From positions 93,930,001-93,994,000 of the forward strand of contig OX597822.1 in NCBI GenBank assembly GCA_951406725.2: 64,000 nucleotides of DNA. The letters run 5' to 3'. The notes beneath the pieces are model-generated. The model searched no databases and was not told the DNA's origin. It saw only the letters and a program-made list of their open reading frames with translations. Of the stretch, positions 1,663 through 35,334 are shown piece by piece (the stretch's first letter is position 1; the number at the start of each line of letters is the position of its first letter). This stretch comes from Octopus vulgaris. Its lineage: Eukaryota. A program made the position numbers and the translations under genes.

Positions 1663-2215
1663 AAGGCGGCGAGCTGGTAGAAACGTTTGCACGCCGGGCA
1701 AAATGCTTTGCGGTATTTCGTCTGCCGCTACGTTCTTAGTTCAAATTTCGCCGAGGTCGACTTTGCCTTTCATCCTTTCGGGGTCGATAAATTAAGGACC
1801 AGTTACGCACTGGGATCGATATAATCGACTTAATCCGTTTGTCTGTCCTTGTTTGTTCCCTCTGTGTTTAGCCCCTTGTGGGTAGTAAAGAAATAGGTAT
1901 TTCGTCTGCCGCTACGTTCTGAGTTTAAATTCCGCCGAGGTCAACTTTGCCTTTCATCCTTTCGGGGTCGATAAATTAAGGACCAGTTACTGGGGTCGAT
2001 ATAATCGACTTAATCCATTTGTCTGTCCTTGTTTGTTCTCTCTGTGTTTAGCCCCTTGTGGGTAGTAAAGAAATAGGTATTTCGTCCCGCCGAGGTCGAC
2101 TTTACCTTAGATCCTTTCGGGGTCGATAAATTAAGAACCAGTTGCGTACTGGGGTCGATCTAATCGACTGGCCCCCTCCTCTAAAATTTCGGGCCTTGTA
2201 CCTAGAGAAGAAAAA
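1663..2215 (+). mobile_element. Trimeric tRNA-derived SINE with Meta-like domain and L1/Tx1-like tail
   Basis: Head aggcggcgagctgg... with B-box-like gttcaaat. Three tandem gtcgactttgcctttcatcctttcggggtcgataaa modules joined at aaata|ggtatttcgtc. Confidence 0.85.
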
Positions 2216-6766: not shown

Positions 6767-7011
6767 ATATTCTTTCTTATAAACAGCAGTTGGTAGAATT
6801 GCCTGGAAATTATCCTAGTGGGGGGTTTGTAATAGTAGCATTCCAACTGTTGCTCTGCTATGTTACCTTCTCGACTGATGCTTTTTTAAAGAAGAATATT
6901 CTTCCTGATAAAAACATGTAGATCTTAATCCTACTTTCAAATTCGGTTAATTCATCAAAAGTAATTGAAGCACATCGCAGCTATTATTTTCGTGGGATGA
7001 AGCCATCTTTG

Positions 7012-7305
7012 TTCATCATCATCATTGTTCGACCGTGGTCGAGACAGTGGAAGTTACTATGCTACGCCAGACTTCACGGTCCATCATAGCATTACGGAGG
7101 TCCTGTTGCTGGATGCCTGTGTCCCTGGAGATTACATCAGGGTAGGAGTGTGTGCGCCCTCTGGTATCGCGAGTAGATGGCTTCCTGAGGAGAAGAGTAG
7201 AAATTGCCTCGTTTTCAGCTCTACAACAATATCCGGCAAACTGGACTCTCCTACCTTTCACAAGAGATGATACAGGTGGTAGTTTCCCATATATTTTGTA
7301 CTTTG
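7012..7305 (-). mobile_element. RTE-type LINE 3' fragment with (TGA)n tail
   Basis: ORF 7022..7315 KGRRVQFAGYCCR...AMMDREVWR is a typical RTE C-terminus. Near-identical shorter copies at 30505-30702 and 35140-35310. Confidence 0.8.
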
Positions 7306-8365
7306 TTAATTTCAAGGCTCTCGTGACCTATATATTTAATGTTAGGGGATCAAGGGATGTAGATGCTGTGTTGTTTCGAAAAGGTCTTGAAATGGACCAT
7401 CTTTGTGAACTCAGAAGGCAGGTTAGTGATGCCGGACGTATCCAACAACGAGGGCTATACCTTTATACTAGTAGTCTCTACGCTCCAAGAGGGGCTAGGT
7501 GGCAAGCTTTCTTTAGGTGTCAAAAGGTCCTCTATGGAATCTTACACCTTTTAGTACGAGTAGATGATTGGTATTCCATCTTAGATGCACGCTAGGATTG
7601 TGAGGGACTAGCTGACAGGAGAGGGGATGCTGGAACCGCCTAAACAGGCTCAGACATTTCCAACTAATAGGTACGGGCTTGATTTCTCGAATGTGGCATT
7701 GTGGATATGAAGAAACAACATCGGATCATTCAGACCTTATACAGATTGAGTATTCTGCAGGCCAGTAGATAGAAATATCGTAGATAATAAAAAAAATTCA
7801 AAGCTGTGGGCTTCGTAGGCAAGGCTCGGATTATTGGAAGTTGAACGCATTGTTTCCGGCATGCCAAGCATGCAGAGACTGGCTTAAGGAATTAGTTGAG
7901 CGGAGGTTGACGGGAGAAATCGTTAACAACAAAGAATGCTAAAAAGAATGATTAGCATAGAATCGATATGGTTTAGTAAGAAAGGAACAATAGATAAAAC
8001 TAGAGTAGAAGAAAACCTACTTATAAAAGGCAATTAGAAAAGACATCGCAACCGACATGCTTGCGGTGCGATTGGCTCTCAATTAATTCTTCAACACTTG
8101 GGTAAGCACGAAGATTGCGTTGTCAGAGCTTAGGTGCGTGCTCCAAGACGCGAAGGAATAACACCCATTTAATGAGCTCGAGTGGAAAGGTGCAACGTGT
8201 CAAATAAATAAAGAAAGAAAAAAAGAAGAAAGTCCGCTAGAGTCACACAATTCGGTGTTCTGCCGACTATAATGAGCGATGGCTACGGCCAGCAAGCAAC
8301 ACTTTGACTCGAGTGGTACTTAACGATAATAGCAGCAAACCTGAAGGTTTTTATGTATTCCAAAT
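7305..8365 (+). pseudogene. Degraded L1/Tx1-clade ORF2 N-terminus (APE endonuclease and linker)
   Basis: Frameshifted motifs in order: FNVRG, AVLFRKGL, EGRLVM.DV, SLYAP, DDWYSILD (GDWN), SDH, YWKLN, CVVRA.VRA. Confidence 0.7.
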
Positions 8366-8986: not shown

Positions 8987-9180
8987 TTCGTGCTAGCTAG
9001 CTGAGCACGAACAATTTAATTCTCAGTAGGAGCAGATGATATCAGCTTATGATTACATGAAGGCTTTTCTCACATTTTAAAACTGGTTTACAGTGACTCG
9101 TAGACTTCTTCTGAATCGACCTACGCCCTTCCCTGAAATTGCTGACCTACCGAAATTTGAAGTCATTATCATTACGAAGA

Positions 9181-9578
9181 AGGCGGCGAGCTGGCAGAAA
9201 CGTTAGCACGCCGGGCGAAATGCGTAGCCATATTTCGCGTGCCGTTACGTTCTGAGTTCAAATTTCGCCGAGGTCGACTTTGCCTTTCATCCTTTCGGGG
9301 TCGATTAAATAAGTACCAGTTACGCACTGGGGTCGATATAATCGACTTAATCCGTTTGTCTGTCCTTGTTTGTCCTCTCTGTGTTTATCCCCTTGTGGGT
9401 AGTAAAGAAATAGGTATTTCGTCCATCTTTACGTTCTGAGTTCAAATTCCGCCGAGGTCGACTTTGCCTTTCTTCCTTTCGGGGTCGATAAATTAGGTAC
9501 CAGTGGAACACTGAGGTCGAAATAATCGACTATCCCTCTCCCCAACACTTCAGGCCTTGTGCCTATAGTAGAAAGGAT
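9181..9578 (+). mobile_element. Dimeric Meta-domain SINE
   Basis: Same head and agtaaagaaata|ggtatttcgtc junction as 1663-2215. Confidence 0.85.
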
Positions 9579-10306
9579 TAATATTATTTGTTGTTATTAT
9601 TGCTGAAAGCATTTTCCTCTTATGTCATTTCTGTAATTAAAAAGTAATTTTCACAATTAACATCAAAGTTATCAGTTTTGAGATGATAATATTTTACTGC
9701 TTGCTTTATTGAATGAGTCGACCCGTTCGTAGCACCATTCAGTTTGAGATGATATTTTGGTGAGTCCAATTTAGTTAAAATTTTCTGAACTGGGACAGAC
9801 CCCAAACCATTTTTAGACCTTTGAACATTTTGGAAGTATTCTCTTTGCACTTTACCGCTTCAAGATTCATATCAAAACAATGGAGATCTTCAGCCTACAG
9901 GTAAAATGAATCAATAGTTATGGGAATGTTTTCCATATATTTTATACGTGACTAATCAAGGAAAATTATTTCCCAAGCTTTACTAACTGGACAGGTATTT
10001 TGACTTGTGGCTTCTGAAAATCTAAATTTTTGACAATCTGAGCAAACTTAGTATATTGTTCGAATGAATGCAATGAACCAGGCTACTATGAATAACTTCT
10101 TTATCATTTTTGCTTTTTACCTTCCCTGTTTCTATGTCCTAAGGGTTATCGTTTATTTCCCCAAGAATGTTGTCGCTGAATCCGGGATAAAACTACCTGT
10201 TTTTATGATAGATCACATTATTTTCAACAAGTTGTCTTACAGCAATATTTTTAAAACAAGAACACTCAGAGAGCGCAAACCTCTGCCAAAGCAACACCAA
10301 TGTCCT

Positions 10307-12005
10307 TAATTTTTTATTACTCACAAGGGGCTAAAAATAGAAGTTATACATTACAAAGACAAAACAAAGCACATAATCGGGGAATTAAAAGTACAGAAAA
10401 ATCGAGTAAGGAAGAAAAAATAAAAAGAACGAATGAAAATATGAAAATGAATAAAATGAAGCGCAATGCTCACTCGACCCCCGAAGTCGAGTGGTTACAT
10501 TTAGTAATTATTTTGGACAGATTTTTCCCTCTTTTTTCCATTTTTTTTTTTAATCAAAAAGTTCACATCTACATTTTTTTAATATTGTTCATATCAGATT
10601 TTATATTTTTTTCTAAAATTTTTCAACTCTTCATGTTCAACCTCGGGCGACAGGGTATCATACAACACCGGCCCGTCAACCATAGTCACCAATTCTCCAT
10701 ACGAATCCATGAACTCGTCGTATCTATCGTCAGTTAATAGAACACACCTTTCATCCTCCTTGAATTTCTCCATGGGCAGCTTTACCCTTACTAATCCCTT
10801 CCACTTGGATATTCGGATCTTTTCGGTTTGAACGGCAGTTTTTAACATAATTTCTAGGTAACTAAAAATTTTAAACTTCGTATACTGGTAGAATGTGTTT
10901 ATAAAACATCTTTTTTCTTGGCTTTATTGAGAAAATTCTATAGTTTGTAAGATATTTGTTGTTTTTTTAACTTCAATTTCTGCAATTTCAACCAATAAAT
11001 GACGTCCATTGAGGTAAAAAAAACATTCTGTGTCGTATGAATATGTCCCTCGTTTAAGAAACAGATTGGGTTTATTTACATTCGTGAAGAAAAAAAGATA
11101 CCCTACCCCAAGATGGCCCGCGCCGGGGCACTGCGTCCCCACACGGCCTCCCACTCGGCACTCGCAGCAATTCGGCCGACGATCCCCAACAACAACCTTG
11201 AGGGACCCCCCCCTGCAACCTCCCGGCAATCTCCAAAGCTCTCGAAAGTGGCAAAAAGTCACATCTCGACACCGTATCCCCACTGGTTTAACACGCTCAC
11301 TCCTCCCACGGTCCCAACTGGGGACCTTCCGCCTCGGCGGCAGCCAGAACAGCTGCCGTCAACCACTCCGTCTCAACATCTGGTGGCACTCCTCTGACCC
11401 GAACCCGAACACCCCGCCCGCCCCCACACGTGGGCAGCAGCGTACCCCGCCGTTCATAGAACATTGGCGGAATGCGAGGCCGCCCCATCCCCGGCAGCAA
11501 ACCCCACCTCCACCGCTCCAAACTTCCTCCCTAATCACGGATCCCAAGCACTCCTCCACATCGTCCTCCGACAGCATCTCAATCCCACCGGCGGCGACCG
11601 CCCGCGTGCGACATACCACCGTCCAACCGCTCCCACTGCTGACCGTCCCCTCTTGAGGGACCAGCCCCACTGCGCCTCATTCCTTGCACAAACCGCTTGC
11701 CTCCCACCACCTCTTCCATATTCACCCTTATCCGCCTCGGCCCCAACGGTGCAGCTGCTCCCACCGCAGAGGCCCCTGTACAGCCTTCCACAATGAAAAG
11801 CCAAACTTTTCACCCCCACAATGGGGAGAAAAACGGCAAAAACACAACAGAATAAAACAACTACGCGCGAGTTGCTTCAACAATAATTTTCAACAGCAAT
11901 AAAAAAAAAAACAATTTCAAAAATGGACAGTCTCAAAGAGAAAGCCCTCAACAATCCAACCGTGGTTTAAAATGGCGAGACTCAAACAAACAAGTTGCTA
12001 CTCTG
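10307..12005 (-). mobile_element. ORF1-only (HAL1-like) non-LTR retroelement A, A-to-G hypermutated and interrupted by a MITE
   Basis: Minus-strand pieces RKFGAVEVGF..LLPTCGG.RGVRVRVRGVPPDVETEWL, NQWGYGVE, knuckle C-x2-C-x4-R-x4-C, C-terminal RISKWKGLVRVKL..; 3' tail cccttgtgagtaataaaaaa. No RT seen. Confidence 0.75.
10815..11110. mobile_element. Merlin-like MITE, truncated just before its telomeric tract, inside element A
   Basis: TIR starts at 10815; similarity ends at aaagataccctacccc. Confidence 0.85.
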
Positions 12006-12020
12006 AAACAGCGACGTCCT

Positions 12021-13926
12021 TATTTTTTTAATTAAGCACAAGGCCTCAATAGAGAAGGGACAACACAAAAACAGACAAAGCAATACATTGGGGTACATAG
12101 AAACACATATCGAATGAATTATGGATATAATGAAAATGAGAATGAAATGGCTTACTATATTACCCGTGGAACGATCGTACTGACGAGCCCTACGGACGAG
12201 GGATTACGTAAGTGATTCATTCGTTAATAGGCGAAATCGCGGTCTGCGATTAATTCTTGTTTTTTATATATAATTTTCATCTGTCATGCCCGCATATTGT
12301 TCTGGTGTCCGCTGAATTCTTTTCTCTTGAGAACATTCTTTTCTTTGTAGTTTTATCGTAGGTGATTTACTTCTAGCATATGGCTGACCACATAGTGGTT
12401 CTTTAGCCCGCCCCCATAAGTAGGTAGCTCCATTTTACTGTTTTTAAATGAACACTTCATATCGGTCTTGTATCTGTTGGTTTATAACATATACTCTATT
12501 AACTCTTCGAAGGCCACTACGGGCAGCACTTCATGGTAACCAATTTGTATTCCTGTCATCTCTATTCTTTCACCAAACAACTCCTTCAATTTCTCTTCCC
12601 TTTCTTTTTCCAACAAAAAGGGCTTTAAAACCTTCGTTATACTCTTCGGCCGCTAATTTCACTCGGATAACGTTCTTCATCTTGGCAATTCTCTTCTCTA
12701 TCTCTACACTTTTTTGGGTATTGCACCATTGTTCTCAGGTTTCTCCCTTTTAGTGTCACTCTCCTCTCCTCACCAATCTCCCCCTCTACCGCTGGCATTT
12801 CTGTCTATGTCTGCCTCTCATTCTGTGTTGCAATCATCTCTCTTTCATTTTCCTTTCTCTTCTGTACTCTTTCCTCCTCGCTAGTTAATGGTATCTGCGT
12901 TCGTTCCTCACATTTGCTGTCTTTTCATTTTTTCTCTTCTCATTTGTACTCTCTTGTTTTTCACTCTGCTTCTCCTCCCCACTTGCCTTTCTTTTCTTCC
13001 TCGGACTTTTTGGTGGTGAGTCATTACTCTTCTTTCTTTTTACCACTGTGTATTGCTCCTCCATTTTCTCCTCCTCCACGGTTACACCCTCTTCTTCATG
13101 ATATTCCTTTCCTGTCTCCTCCTCTTCGTGTTTCTGGGGACACTTCGTCCGGCAGTATCTGTTCCTCCGCAATCTTGTGGAGGTCTGGCAAGCTTATATG
13201 GACCAACACCTCCAGTCCATACCCCCAGCAGTTCACCACCGTAGTTCTCGATATTTTTATTATCTATGTGTCCTCCTCTGTGTTGAAGAGGATGGCTGTC
13301 ACCAGCCACGCCTCATCAATTTCTGGGAGCACTCTACTTATTCTTACTCTGGCCGCACGTTTGCCACAGTAAGTCGGTAATATTGCCCACTCCGCTGATC
13401 TCAAAGGCACAGTAGAGTATTTCCTCGCTTCTTCTTCGTTCACAAAGCGTACCTCCACTGTGCCGTATTTCCTTCCTCTGGTGTAGAACGTCGTTACGTT
13501 CTTAATTTATCCGAAGCATTCCTCGACTTTTTTGTTTCAATTTTCAATGTTCTGTACACCATTGTTACTATATCCTTTTTATCTGTTACTTCTTTGTGGG
13601 GCGTCAACCTCAGGCTGTCTCCCTCTTTTTTCGATAACTCATTGAATTTCTAAAAATCCTTCTCCTGTAATTCAATTTCTGTAACTTGCAGTCCCTCCGC
13701 TGACAGGCGTTTGCCAGTCACCGCAGCGTAACTGCTCGCTTGCACTAGTGTATCTTCCATAATGTTCACAACTTCATCCACAAATGGAGAAGAAGACTGA
13801 AAACGGTAACAATAAGTTCAACAGGTAACAACAATCCAACAATTCAATGAATATCAGTTAAACAAAAGCGGTACTCACAAGGAGCCTGTACTTTTCCAAT
13901 TCACTAACTCAATAAAACACTAACGA
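12021..13926 (-). mobile_element. ORF1-only (HAL1-like) non-LTR retroelement B, degenerate ORF from ATG at 13760
   Basis: MEDTLVQASSYAAVT..RKYGTVEVRF..ILPTYCGKRAARVRISRVLPEIDEAWL..NCWGYGLE, K/E-rich linker, C-terminal RIAKMKNVIRVKL..; A-rich 3' tail at 12021. Flanked by target copies at 12006-12020 and 13927-13941. Confidence 0.78.
12173..12251 (+). ncRNA. Type I hammerhead ribozyme
   Basis: Stem I GATCGTA/TGCGATT; core CTGACGA at 12180-12186; long stem II GCC..GGC capped by GATTAC-GTAA-GTGATT; GAAA at 12233-12236; near-palindromic stem III ATCGCGGT; GTC triplet with predicted cleavage after 12244. Confidence 0.8.
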
Positions 13927-14150
13927 CAACACCAACGTCCTCTCAACGATTAGCTGGAGAGGATTTTTGAAATGAGAATATCTGAAATAAACTCGACTGT
14001 TCTCACAAACGGAAATACTAAAAATGAACCCGACCGCTCTCAAAAATTAAGTAAAAAACGAAAACTAATCCAGAATCCTTGTCCGGTATCGGATCGATCC
14101 CAAAATCTAATCAGTTCGTTCCAGTCACGAGGCCAAGCATTCCTGAAAGT

Positions 14151-14457
14151 ACGTGATTCCTGTTGTTTATTGAAAAGTATTGTGATTCGTTGGAAATAAA
14201 GAGACACAAAGGGGAATGTGAACTGTGGAAAGTAGACTTTAACGAAGAAAAACTACCACAGTTTATAGAATATAAAGAACTTTAAAAAAGGTGTGGGGTA
14301 GACATAATGGAGAACAGAAAAAAGGAAGCAAGTTATGTTACTCGATGGGGCAAGTTTTCATTTCACATTTTTTCATCTTTCATTATATCATACGTTTTAT
14401 GTCCCCCAATGTGATATATGTCCCTCTTTGTTGGCCCGTTATGGGTAATAAAAAAAT
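14151..14457 (+). mobile_element. 5'-truncated copy of the same L1/HAL1-like family (3' UTR and tail)
   Basis: 17-bp TSD CAAGCATTCCTGAAAGT / CAAGCATCCTTGAAAGT at 14134-14150 and 14458-14474. UTR ttcattatatcat..tatgtcccccaatgt matches the UTR of element B. Confidence 0.7.
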
Positions 14458-14958
14458 CAAGCATCCTTGAAAGTTTCATCTGAATCCATCCAGCGGTTCT
14501 TGAGATATCTTGTCCACAGACAAACAAACAAACACGACTGAAAACAATACCACCCGCCTTCTCTAAGGCGGAAGTTATAAAACTACAGTCGCTACTTGAA
14601 TTTTCGAACCTGGAACTGTTTTTTCCCCGTCATCGCGTACGTTATTCGAAATTTGAATCGCTAGTTCCACCAGCAGTTCGAATTTTATAGGTTAATACAA
14701 ATTACGCTTATGTTAGGCTTGTGAATTGCAGGGAAGGCACGGTTTCTACAAGACACTATGAACATTAATCTATACTAATATTTTTCACAATATGTGGCCA
14801 GTCCAAACTGAAGCGGGAAATAGATCAGATGGAAGCAGAAAAACTGCAGAATAGAATGAAACCACTGTTGAAACACCTCCCCTACATCTTGTAGCCCTAG
14901 ATTAACGTTAGAAAACGCCGAATAAGTATTTGGTAAATCAGATATATAGGCAATCTTT

Positions 14959-15397
14959 GGATCTTTTCGGTTTGAACGGCAGTTTTTAACATAATTTCTA
15001 GGTAACTAAAAAATTTTAAACTTCGTATACTGGTAGAATGTGTTTATAAAACATCTTTTTCTCTTGGCTTTCTTGAGAAAATTCTGTAGTTTGTAACATA
15101 TTTGTTGTTTAATTTCTTGCATTTCGGCAATTTCAACCAATCGATGACGTCCATTGAGGTAAAATACATTCTGTGCCGTATGAATATGTCTCTGGTTTAA
15201 GAAACAGATTGGGTTTATTTACATTTGTGAAGAAAAAAAGATACCCTTCCCCCCACCCCTAACCCTAACCCTAACCCTAACTAACCCTAACCCTAAAACA
15301 GATTGAAATGCAATAGATCAATACTAGAGTCATAATTATGGGTGACAATTTCATATGACACCGCTAGAAAAAACTGCCGTTCAAACCGAAAAGATCC
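14959..15397. mobile_element. Merlin-like telomeric-repeat MITE, complete
   Basis: TIRs at both ends; 8-bp TSD CAATCTTT at 14951-14958 and 15398-15405; (CCCTAA)n around 15257-15296. Confidence 0.92.
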
Positions 15398-16352
15398 CAA
15401 TCTTTTTTCGAGACGAGACTCATTTAATGTGCTTTAATAAAAATTACATTTTTTTTTACTGAAATTCCGGGAGAAGGGTCTAATTGATTACATCAACCAC
15501 CAGTGCTTGACTGGTACTTAATTTATCGACTCTGAAAGGATGAAAGGCAAAGTCGACCTCGGCAAAATTTGAGCTCAGAACGTAAAACCGGAAGAAATGC
15601 CAATAACCATTTTACTTGGCGTAATAACGATTTTGCTAGTTCGCCGCTTTGACCGAAATTATGACAAAAAGTAAACACGTTGTTGTTGTTGTTGTGATTG
15701 ATATTGCTTCACCGAAGTTATATCACAGTTCAATTAATTCTTACTGACTTCTAAATTTTCTTCGTGAATGCTCGCTTTCCTGTTAGCAAATGAAGCATCG
15801 GTGTTATATTGTTGCAGCTAATTATGTTAAGTTACCACATTCTGAACCTGGATGATTGCAAAGGAAATCCAACACTTTCATTTTCATATTTCATATTTCC
15901 AGAACACAATCCTGACATGGAGTCAGTTTAATTATATCTTGCTCGGGGTTTTCCGTTAATTAATTGAATTTAAAAGATGCTGCTTGCAAATTTATTCTTA
16001 AAATAATAGCATTTCATGACTCAATGTCACGTTGCTTGGTTTCCATTAATTTCAATTTATGTTGTTATTAATTTTTTGCAGCTATTATTGATTTTTCTAT
16101 TTGTATATGAAGTAGGCGGGAAAAGCATGTATTTGAATTTTCACAATGGCTTAAACATCACATGTGGACAAGAAGAGAGATTTCTTTCCTGTCCTTTTCT
16201 ATTTTCAGCTTCATCATCCATCCCAAATTAGTTTGGCTTCAAATTGCATTGACCATATGGCTTCTGTTTGACTATTCAAAATGGAAGGATTTTTCTGACA
16301 TCTTCGTTACTAGTTTACCGGGTTTTAAGTTCAAGCAGAGAGATCGTGTTTT

Positions 16353-18194: not shown

Positions 18195-18675
18195 TGGCGA
18201 AAGAGGTTGTATGGTGGACCCGTTTGAAAGGGCTAAAGTCAGACACTTTCCTCTTTGGTCAAGGCCTCATCAACTTTTTCGAGTTTCACTTGAAAAGGAA
18301 GATGAGGTTAGAGAGGAGAGTGCTGTCTGATAGCAAATTTTCTGAAAGGTGGGTGAATTGTGCAAGAATGGCCAGTATAAATGGACCAATTCTGAGGTTT
18401 CGCCTGTAATTGAAAAAGGTATTATAAAAGGAGAAAGGGACTCTCTACCCCACTTTTGACCAGGCTCCCGTTGGCTTTTATGGGGTTTTTTTTCCACCAG
18501 GAACCTTTCGTAACGCCTCCCCTATTGGGAGATTTTCGTTGTTATATTATTTGATTGTTACAATGTTTTTACACGATTTTTTCACAAACGGACAAAACCC
18601 TTTGTAACCTTCCGCCCTGTTTTGTCCCTTTATGTTTTCTAATCATGTGTGTCAGCCCTTGTGGCCAATAAAAAG
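18195..18675 (+). mobile_element. L1/Tx1-clade LINE 3' fragment (ORF2 C-terminus and 3' UTR)
   Basis: AKEVVWWTRLK..LINFFEFHLKRKMRLERRVL..FSERW, followed by the tail gcccttgtggccaataaaaa shared with the SINE and HAL1-like elements. Confidence 0.7.
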
Positions 18676-34600: not shown

Positions 34601-35334
34601 AATATGTATTTTCAATGCCAGTATAAAATCTATAAAAAGATGAGTTTATGCCATCATATAATCTTTTAACCAGCTTTAACTCTATGAAATCTAATTATAT
34701 AATACAGCAAGGCCAAGAGTTGTCAGAATCGTTACCACGCCGGGCAAAATGCTTTGCGGTATTTCGTCTGTCTTTGTGCTCTGAGTACAAATTCCGCCGA
34801 GGTCGACTTTGCCTTTCATCCTTTCGGGGTCGATAAATTAAGTACCAGTTACGCACTGGGGTCGATGTAATCGACTTAATCCGTTTGTCTGTCCTTGTTT
34901 GTCCTCTCTATGTTTAGCCCCTTGTGGGTAGTAAAGAAATAGGTATTTCGTCTGTCTTTGTGCTCTGAGTACAAATTCCGCCAAGATCGACTTTGCCTTT
35001 CATCCTTTCGGGGTCGATAAAATAAGTACAAGTTAAGTACTGGGGTCGATGTAATCGACTATCCCCCTCCCCCAAATTTCAGGCCTTGTGCCTATAGTAG
35101 AAAGGATTATATAAAACAGTAAATAAAGAATATTGTACAATCATCATCATCATCATTGTTCGACTGTGGTCGAGACAATGGAATTTACCATGCTACGCCA
35201 GACTTCACGGTCCATCATGGCATTACGGAGGTCCTGTTGCAGGATGCCTGTATCCCTGGAGATTACATCAGGGTAGGAGAGTGTGCGCCCTCTGGTATTG
35301 CGAGTAGATGCATATCTAGTTTCTAACACGCACG

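What the first reader, a model, noticed from the sequence alone, without database searches (positions are those of the whole stretch)
12021..13926. HAL1-like (half-L1) family with an unrecognised conserved C-terminal domain
Seen: B is a 1.9-kb unit between target duplications with a 5' UTR, one ORF1-like frame and an L1/Tx1-type tail, and no room for endonuclease or RT. After a K/E-rich linker, both elements encode a similar domain of about 70 aa. A reads RISKWKGLVRVKLPMEKFKEDERCVLLTDDRYDEFMDSYGELVTMVDGPVLYDTLSPEVEHEEL. B, across one frameshift, reads RIAKMKNVIRVKLAAEEYNEGFKAL/LLEKEREEKLKELFGERIEMTGIQIGYHEVLPVVAFEEL. Known: HAL1 elements encode only ORF1 and borrow L1 ORF2. Inference: the domain was under selection, and I do not recognise it. 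Candidate autonomous partners lie in the same window (7305-8365, 18195-18675).
Basis: partly seen in the sequence, partly recalled or inferred. Interest (0 to 1): 0.7.

Follow-up and report, generated by a model that had tools for sequence, protein, structure and literature searches.

The report
Octopus half-retrotransposons with inherited extra domain
Two decayed jumping genes that encode only an RNA-packaging protein sit head to tail at one exact spot inside a small DNA transposon of an octopus genome, and their unnamed end domain is a conserved module, predicted to have a ferredoxin-like fold, that full-length relatives likely also carry, so it is probably inherited rather than a new invention.

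Summary
B (12021-13926, minus strand) belongs to an ORF1-only family: 10 of 10 copies with both ends are 1.4-2.2 kb, and 0 of 30 B-type tails have ORF2 upstream. A (10307-12005) is a second family stacked behind B. Both sit at one site near the 3' end of a HINE-like (non-autonomous Helentron) repeat, with 15-bp duplications. The C-terminal domain (about 85 aa) is real and under purifying selection (dN/dS 0.15-0.40). It has no credible Pfam match and is predicted to fold beta-alpha-beta-beta-alpha-beta (pLDDT 83). It is not special to half elements. A homologous segment ends ORF1 in autonomous Tx1 elements, 45-79 nt before the endonuclease ORF (reciprocal HMM E 3e-7 and 4e-6; profile-profile E 1e-4). 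The ORF1-only families fall on one side of the ORF1 tree (98/96) yet use different targets. The partner for this site was not found. This scan reported the stacking and targeting before on other DNA of this genome. Verdict: a Tx1-derived variant of ORF1-present non-autonomous LINEs, with an unannotated but ancestral domain.

The parts
13942..14578 (-). 5' part of the host repeat: HINE-like, with a 5' hairpin holding the subterminal inverted repeat near 14575; carries an extra insert at about 14148-14458
   Evidence: matches empty copy L398 at 79-87%
13927..13941 (-). target-site duplication, copy 1 (15 bp)
   Evidence: single copy in empty hosts
12021..13926 (-). element B, ORF1-only Tx1-type retrotransposon, decayed copy
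13761..13926 (-). B 5' UTR
   Evidence: same 5' end in sibling copies
12482..13760 (-). B ORF1 relic with stops and frameshifts: RRM-like pair (to about 13144), CCHC knuckle deleted, K/E linker, C-terminal domain
12485..12750 (-). B C-terminal domain, two frameshifts
12157..12409 (.). unrelated insert in B 3' UTR, absent from siblings
   Evidence: (93% match elsewhere in the genome)
12021..12155 (-). B 3' tail ending in an A-rich AATAAA-type motif, similar to tails of A, autonomous Tx1 and the tRNA-type SINE
12006..12020 (-). target-site duplication, copy 2 (12 of 15 identical to copy 1)
10307..12005 (-). element A, second ORF1-only family, decayed copy
10812..11104 (.). unrelated insert replacing knuckle and linker in A
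   Evidence: 93.6% to a stretch of L047
10597..10818 (-). A C-terminal domain (its first strand lost)
10292..10306 (-). target-site duplication, copy 3
10255..10291 (-). 3' end of the host repeat: subterminal inverted repeat and stem-loop

Best explanation
A and B are dead copies of two Tx1-type retrotransposon families that encode only ORF1, sit at one fixed site of a HINE-like repeat, and likely borrow endonuclease and reverse transcriptase from a full-length Tx1; their end domain is a predicted ferredoxin-like module that was likely inherited with ORF1 from the full-length ancestor. Shown: ORF1-only anatomy, fixed site, 15-bp duplication, stacking, purifying selection on the domain. Inferred: the element's RNA is coated by its own ORF1 protein (RRM-RRM-CCHC); a Tx1 ORF2 protein recognises the shared 3' tail in trans, nicks the site and reverse-transcribes there; the duplication rebuilds the site, so later copies stack. 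The domain most likely helps build the ribonucleoprotein, by binding nucleic acid or another ORF1 copy through a conserved basic patch. It is unlikely to be an enzyme.
For: ORF1-only: 10 of 10 B-family copies with both ends are 1390-2215 nt; 27 of 30 B-type tails have the domain upstream and 0 of 30 have ORF2; 1 of 138 domain-bearing places has an ORF2 start within 600 nt, and that one follows a tail and a new 5' UTR. Target: 17 of 19 distinct 5' junctions are at this site or stacked on it, 2 are in a SINE head (counted by eye); about 95 of the first 100 listed of 1096 site matches are empty (counted by eye). Selection: dN/dS 0.15-0.40 for the domain (5 of 6 pairs, one saturated), 0.09-0.17 for the core, 0.33-0.82 for the linker. 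Fold: pLDDT 83, strand-helix order E-H-E-E-H-E-E-H; the top matches are mostly ferredoxin-like folds, best Z 5.6, rmsd 3.2, 78 aligned (fold class of the hits from my own knowledge). Basic columns K17, K/R23-24, K29, R33, K35, K/R46 at 85-97%; no invariant column and no conserved Cys/His. Inheritance: 17 of 20 divergent relatives of the autonomous segment have the endonuclease ORF 45-79 nt downstream; profile-profile probability 56.8, E 1.1e-4, 73 columns, score 28.3 against a maximum of 19.3 in 100 column shuffles; reciprocal HMM hits to E 2.9e-7 and 4.4e-6; 0 of 2000 shuffles reach the score in L379. Shared target with an ORF2-coding element is seen for sister families L094 and L091.
Against: No ORF2-coding element was found at the A/B site: 0 of 109 ORF2 ends examined, 0 of 30 tail-plus-site loci. 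Homology of the domain to autonomous ORF1 is of moderate strength: the narrow profile A1 gives probability 1.25 and no HMM hit; the F2 autonomous group is not significantly linked. The model of the ATT-family segment is poor (pLDDT 59) and agrees only in one strand-helix pair. No structural match stands out (Z under 6; Foldseek best E 8e-3). Strand 3 lacks the aromatic residues of a canonical RRM. 10 of 30 B-type tails are not followed by the site motif.
Confidence: 0.75

Rival explanations
1. The domain was captured or newly made in the ORF1-only lineage, and its likeness to autonomous ORF1 ends is chance or convergence.
For: The narrow profile does not detect autonomous segments; within the ORF1-only lineage the domain is easily found at 27-80% identity; those families form one side of the tree.
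Against: Same position after the knuckle and linker; colinear match over 73 columns; reciprocal hits; shuffles exceeded. The ATT and F3 autonomous groups also match each other there (probability 91.9).
Confidence: 0.12
2. The domain is an adaptor that recruits ORF2 protein or the partner's ORF1, so it decides which autonomous family and which target each half family uses.
For: One ORF1-only lineage uses several targets. The domain evolves faster than the core yet stays constrained. Hetero-multimerisation is proposed for HeT-A, HAL1 and Ag-Sponge (PMC5786205, passage read).
Against: Tails shared with autonomous Tx1 and the SINE suffice to explain trans-mobilisation. No interaction data. Autonomous ORF1 likely has the same domain.
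Confidence: 0.2
3. The system is a split LINE: ORF1-only and ORF2-only elements complement each other.
For: One degraded element has a short 5' UTR directly before an endonuclease start (L300/L341).
Against: Intact two-ORF Tx1 elements are abundant. The 3.68-kb tandem I suspected is a segmental duplicate. L341 is a single truncated copy.
Confidence: 0.04
4. A and B are one-off deletions of autonomous elements.
For: L344 joins a related ORF1 to ORF2 pieces.
Against: L344 starts at the HINE site but ends in the SINE target, and its ORF1 nests among ORF1-only families, so it is best read as a chimera. Family-wide counts show no ORF2. Intact ORF1s end in a stop, a 3' UTR and a tail.
Confidence: 0.02

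Closest known systems
HAL1 (half-L1), and the ORF1-present non-autonomous LINEs HeT-A and Ag-Sponge (PMC5753468, PMC5786205; passages read)
   Same: Encodes only ORF1p, keeps the 5' and 3' ends of a LINE, and depends on an autonomous partner (inferred here).
   Different: Parent is the Tx1 clade, not L1, Jockey or CR1. ORF1 is RRM-RRM-CCHC type, not Transposase_22. Site-specific. One deep lineage rather than several independent origins.
Tx1L in Tx1D of Xenopus; Tx1-Mar and SINEU-3 in Mariner-N4_AMi of crocodilians (PMC4494074; passages read)
   Same: Tx1-clade targeting of another transposon, a duplication of about 15 bp, and tandem insertions sandwiching a duplication.
   Different: The dependants here are protein-coding, and the host is a HINE-like repeat.
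Type I ORF1p (RRM plus CCHC; PMC5203782, passages read) and ZCCHC3-like RBD-RBD-CCHC proteins
   Same: N-terminal architecture; ESM Atlas score 0.90 to a PF23057/PF23058/PF00098 cluster (a lead only).
   Different: An extra globular domain follows a charged linker, and no Pfam family describes it.
HINE / DINE-1 non-autonomous Helentrons (PMC4067079; passages read), for the host repeat
   Same: Subterminal inverted repeats, a 5' hairpin that includes the repeat, a 3' stem-loop, T-rich flanks, no coding capacity.
   Different: No autonomous Helentron was sought, and the inverted repeat is about 10 bp.

Membership tests
ORF1-present non-autonomous LINE (HAL1-like class) | Encodes ORF1 only, family-wide | tested here: met
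ORF1-present non-autonomous LINE (HAL1-like class) | LINE-type 5' end, 3' tail and target duplication shared by many copies | tested here: met
ORF1-present non-autonomous LINE (HAL1-like class) | ORF1 kept by selection after loss of ORF2 | tested here: met
   intact frames of 436-483 aa in sister families
ORF1-present non-autonomous LINE (HAL1-like class) | Mobilised in trans by an identified autonomous partner | tested here: inconclusive
   shared site seen for sister families; none found at the A/B site
HAL1 in the strict sense | Derived from L1-clade elements with Transposase_22-type ORF1 | tested here: not met
   no Transposase_22 hit; ORF1 core is 27-37% identical to Tx1-type ORF1
Tx1 clade | ORF1 homologous to ORF1 of elements with endonuclease-RT-zinc ORF2 | tested here: met
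   blastp E 8e-41 to 6e-29; partner-type ORF2 has PF03372, PF00078, PF13966
Tx1 clade | RT phylogeny places the ORF2 relatives in Tx1 rather than L1 | not tested
   no reference RTs on hand; the label Tx1 rests on recalled ORF2 features, target specificity and PMC4494074
RRM | beta-alpha-beta-beta-alpha-beta fold | tested here: met
   (predicted; RRMs at Z 4.2-4.7)
RRM | RNP1/RNP2 aromatic residues, or a sequence match to an RRM family | tested here: not met
   strand 3 has no aromatic column; no RRM family among 40 members
HINE (host repeat) | Subterminal inverted repeats, 5' hairpin, 3' stem-loop | tested here: met
   five loci plus the window
HINE (host repeat) | Shares ends with an autonomous Helentron | not tested
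   not searched
Repbase/Dfam octopus entries | Identity to a deposited consensus | not testable with these tools
   libraries not held

The most novel reading that the evidence does not exclude
One ancient ORF1-only lineage has lived as a satellite of octopus Tx1 elements since before its synonymous sites saturated, hopping between autonomous families with different target sites. It keeps its own ORF1 because the ferredoxin-like end domain is the docking module that couples an ORF1 coat to a partner's enzyme, a role not yet assigned to any LINE ORF1 domain.
Probability: 0.17. Interest if true: 0.72.

Novelty: new variant of a known kind. Interest (0 to 1): 0.4.

Why it matters
It adds a Tx1-derived, site-specific member to the short list of ORF1-present non-autonomous LINEs, and defines an unannotated ORF1 domain shared by half and, likely, full-length elements. 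Why such elements keep ORF1 is an open question. This genome holds intact half-element ORF1s, intact two-ORF Tx1 elements and defined target sites, so tail, domain and partner can be swapped in a standard retrotransposition assay. The domain itself is probably ordinary for octopus Tx1, which lowers the surprise.

Tried and rejected
Domain identity: Pfam on 40 members gave only scattered weak hits, best E 0.006 in 2 of 40. PDB sequence search: best E 0.02 over 29 positions to a copper-ATPase metal-binding domain, rejected because there is no conserved Cys. ESM Atlas: Rep_trans clusters at 0.85 with low recognition, a lead only. Foldseek: nothing at E 0.001 or better. A listed or unlisted fold family is not excluded by these searches. 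Idea that the domain is the C-terminus of ORF2: the ORF2 ends seen look unrelated by eye, and the homologous segment lies before the ORF2 start. Protein database searches found little: 4 hits for the N-terminal part, none for the domain of L095, 2 longer proteins, 43 in the representative library. Of those 43 I looked up 20: 8 named Octopus, 11 unnamed Logan proteins, 1 unrelated false hit, so the range outside Octopus is unknown. Rfam: no credible RNA family in 9500-15500. Sequencing runs: no RNA holder listed; no reads were laid. My first reading of 7305-8365 as RTE was wrong; it is a Tx1 endonuclease relic on the plus strand. The ORF2-only idea was dropped. A dimer prediction was not obtained. 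Bao and Jurka 2010 is not held. Eight paper searches listed no paper describing Tx1-derived ORF1-only families in octopus or this domain; PMC13282606 (passages) has no mention of ORF1 or non-autonomous elements in its main text, and its supplements were not read.

Full report
Setting. The window lies in a 2.8-Gb genome. Named homologous proteins are from Octopus, so I call it octopus-type.

Observation. Both peptides are present at the stated places on the minus strand. A's domain and that of B's sibling L003 share 39% over 64 aa. B runs from 13926 to 12021 between two copies of a 15-bp sequence, and a third copy closes A at 10292-10306. B has lost about 75 nt that hold a CCHC knuckle in siblings and carries an insert of about 250 nt in its 3' UTR. 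In A an insert of about 290 nt replaces knuckle and linker; an uninterrupted A-type copy (L396) has both.

ORF1-only is a family trait. Ten of 10 B-family copies with both ends in the held loci measure 1390-2215 nt. Of 30 B-type tails, 27 have the domain upstream and none has ORF2. Of 141 places with the domain, 138 had 600 nt or more downstream; one has an ORF2 start within 600 nt, and there a tail and a new 5' UTR lie between. Sister families have intact ORF1 frames of 436-483 aa followed by a 3' UTR and tail. These searches score only the best candidates, so the counts are samples.

Target. Seventeen of 19 distinct 5' junctions lie at one site or on a copy stacked there; two lie in a SINE head (counted by eye). 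The left half of the site matches 1096 places, and about 95 of the first 100 listed continue as the empty host with one copy of the 15-mer. The host is about 350 nt long, with a 5' hairpin, a subterminal inverted repeat and a 3' stem-loop, the features given for HINEs in PMC4067079 (passages). Specificity is not absolute: 20 of 30 tails are followed by the site motif. Other ORF1-only families use other repeats, and two of them share a duplication with an adjacent ORF2-coding element (L094, L091). I found no ORF2-coding element at the A/B site (0 of 109 ORF2 ends; 0 of 30 loci).

The domain. Forty natural, stop-free copies (of 44 found; 5 left out for broken flanks or short length, and A re-cut) align over about 85 aa with no invariant column. 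AlphaFold2 gives pLDDT 83 and the order strand, helix, strand, strand, helix, strand, then a short strand and helix. Among 48,161 chains the best Z is 5.6; the top rows are, by my knowledge, mostly ferredoxin-like folds, with RRMs at Z 4.2-4.7. Nothing stands out, so this gives a fold class and no function. Conserved columns are hydrophobic core positions and a basic set (K17, K/R23-24, K29, R33, K35, K/R46); strand 3 lacks RNP aromatics and there is no conserved Cys or His. Between four intact ORF1s, dN/dS is 0.15-0.40 for the domain (one pair saturated), 0.09-0.17 for the core and 0.33-0.82 for the linker. Across deeper families most synonymous sites are saturated; measurable ratios are 0.23-0.74. 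These are single copies that also carry neutral changes made after insertion.

Is it special to half elements? At first the narrow profile missed autonomous ORF1s. With divergent members added, it matched the same position in an intact two-ORF element, L379 (12.6 bits, model positions 3-77, 0 of 2000 shuffles) and weakly in the (ATT)n family (1-9 per 1000-2000 shuffles). Searching back with the L379 segment gave divergent relatives. I fetched 20 of 150, chosen for low identity and few stops; 17 have the endonuclease ORF 45-79 nt downstream. Their profile matches the half-element profile over 73 columns (probability 56.8, E 1.1e-4; 0 of 100 column shuffles reach it), with reciprocal HMM hits to E 2.9e-7 and 4.4e-6. 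Against this: the narrow profile still gives probability 1.25, the F2 group is not linked, and the model of the (ATT)n segment is poor. I put homology at about 85%.

Tree. On the RRM-RRM-CCHC core, 12 ORF1-only rows fall on one side of a branch against 6 autonomous rows, support 98/96. Three rows were skipped by the script (L101, L103, L117). One row (P0026) is assumed ORF1-only, one (L344) is a chimera, the tree is unrooted, and the autonomous families were not included. One origin is therefore likely but not shown.

Mechanism. Most likely the element's RNA is coated by its own ORF1p, its 3' tail (similar in A, B, autonomous Tx1 and the SINE) is recognised by a Tx1 ORF2p in trans, and target-primed reverse transcription at the endonuclease's site leaves a 15-bp duplication that rebuilds the site. 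That the endonuclease sets the target is stated in PMC4494074 (passage). The domain is most likely a structural or nucleic-acid-binding part of the particle. These steps are inferred.

Known systems. The class is ORF1-present non-autonomous LINEs: HeT-A from Jockey, HAL1 from L1, Ag-Sponge from CR1 (PMC5786205, passage; PMC5753468, passages). Tx1 targeting of other transposons, with tandem dependants, is described for Xenopus and crocodilians (PMC4494074, passages). PMC5203782, PMC11203168 and PMC13282606 were read as passages only. Eight searches listed no description of this lineage or domain, but Repbase and Dfam could not be checked. Earlier notes of this scan report stacking of ORF1-only families in Helitron-type repeats and SINEs of this genome; none listed deals with the domain.

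Verdict. Real, a new variant of a known kind. The domain is unannotated but likely ancestral. Interest 0.4.

Noticed in passing
L401:880-3100 (G000:C1:29159365 onward): A B-family copy with 133 A-to-G against 33 G-to-A and 25 T-to-C differences from L003, whereas B itself shows 42, 30 and 31. This looks like ADAR hyper-editing fixed by reverse transcription; the scan noted the like before.
   Followed up: partly
L341 (G000:C14:73698000-73706500), locus 6990-7440, minus strand: A short 5' UTR directly followed by a Tx1 endonuclease start, stacked behind an ORF1-only copy; a single truncated copy, possibly ORF2-only or a deletion.
   Followed up: partly
window 12157-12409: Insert in B's 3' UTR with a 93% match elsewhere in the genome; nature not worked out, no Rfam hit.
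   Followed up: no
L102:5741-8333, L107, L343: Another ORF1-only family inserts about 16 nt downstream of the A/B site in the same host, and a 340-nt internally deleted unit of it also moves or stacks there.
   Followed up: partly
L092-L099, L110 flanks; L189 3' flank: Sister ORF1-only families and an autonomous Tx1 insert in other repeats, one of which resembles a Penelope terminal repeat (recalled, not tested).
   Followed up: no
window 1663-1962, 9180-9479, 34709-35008 and others: The abundant SINE has a 3' tail nearly the same as that of element A and of the SINE-targeting autonomous Tx1.
   Followed up: partly
G000:C50:5788-58819, C4:93804915-93834475, C47: Long head-to-tail arrays of near-identical Tx1 elements, many with an intact ORF2 (unit about 5.87 kb), so the clade is probably still active.
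   Followed up: no
window 7022-7327, minus strand: A 101-aa frame that resembles the C-terminus of an RTE-type ORF (recalled; no Pfam hit).
   Followed up: no
P0014: An Octopus bimaculoides gene model fuses part of this ORF1, with the domain, into what looks like an RGS protein; probably a gene-prediction error.
   Followed up: no
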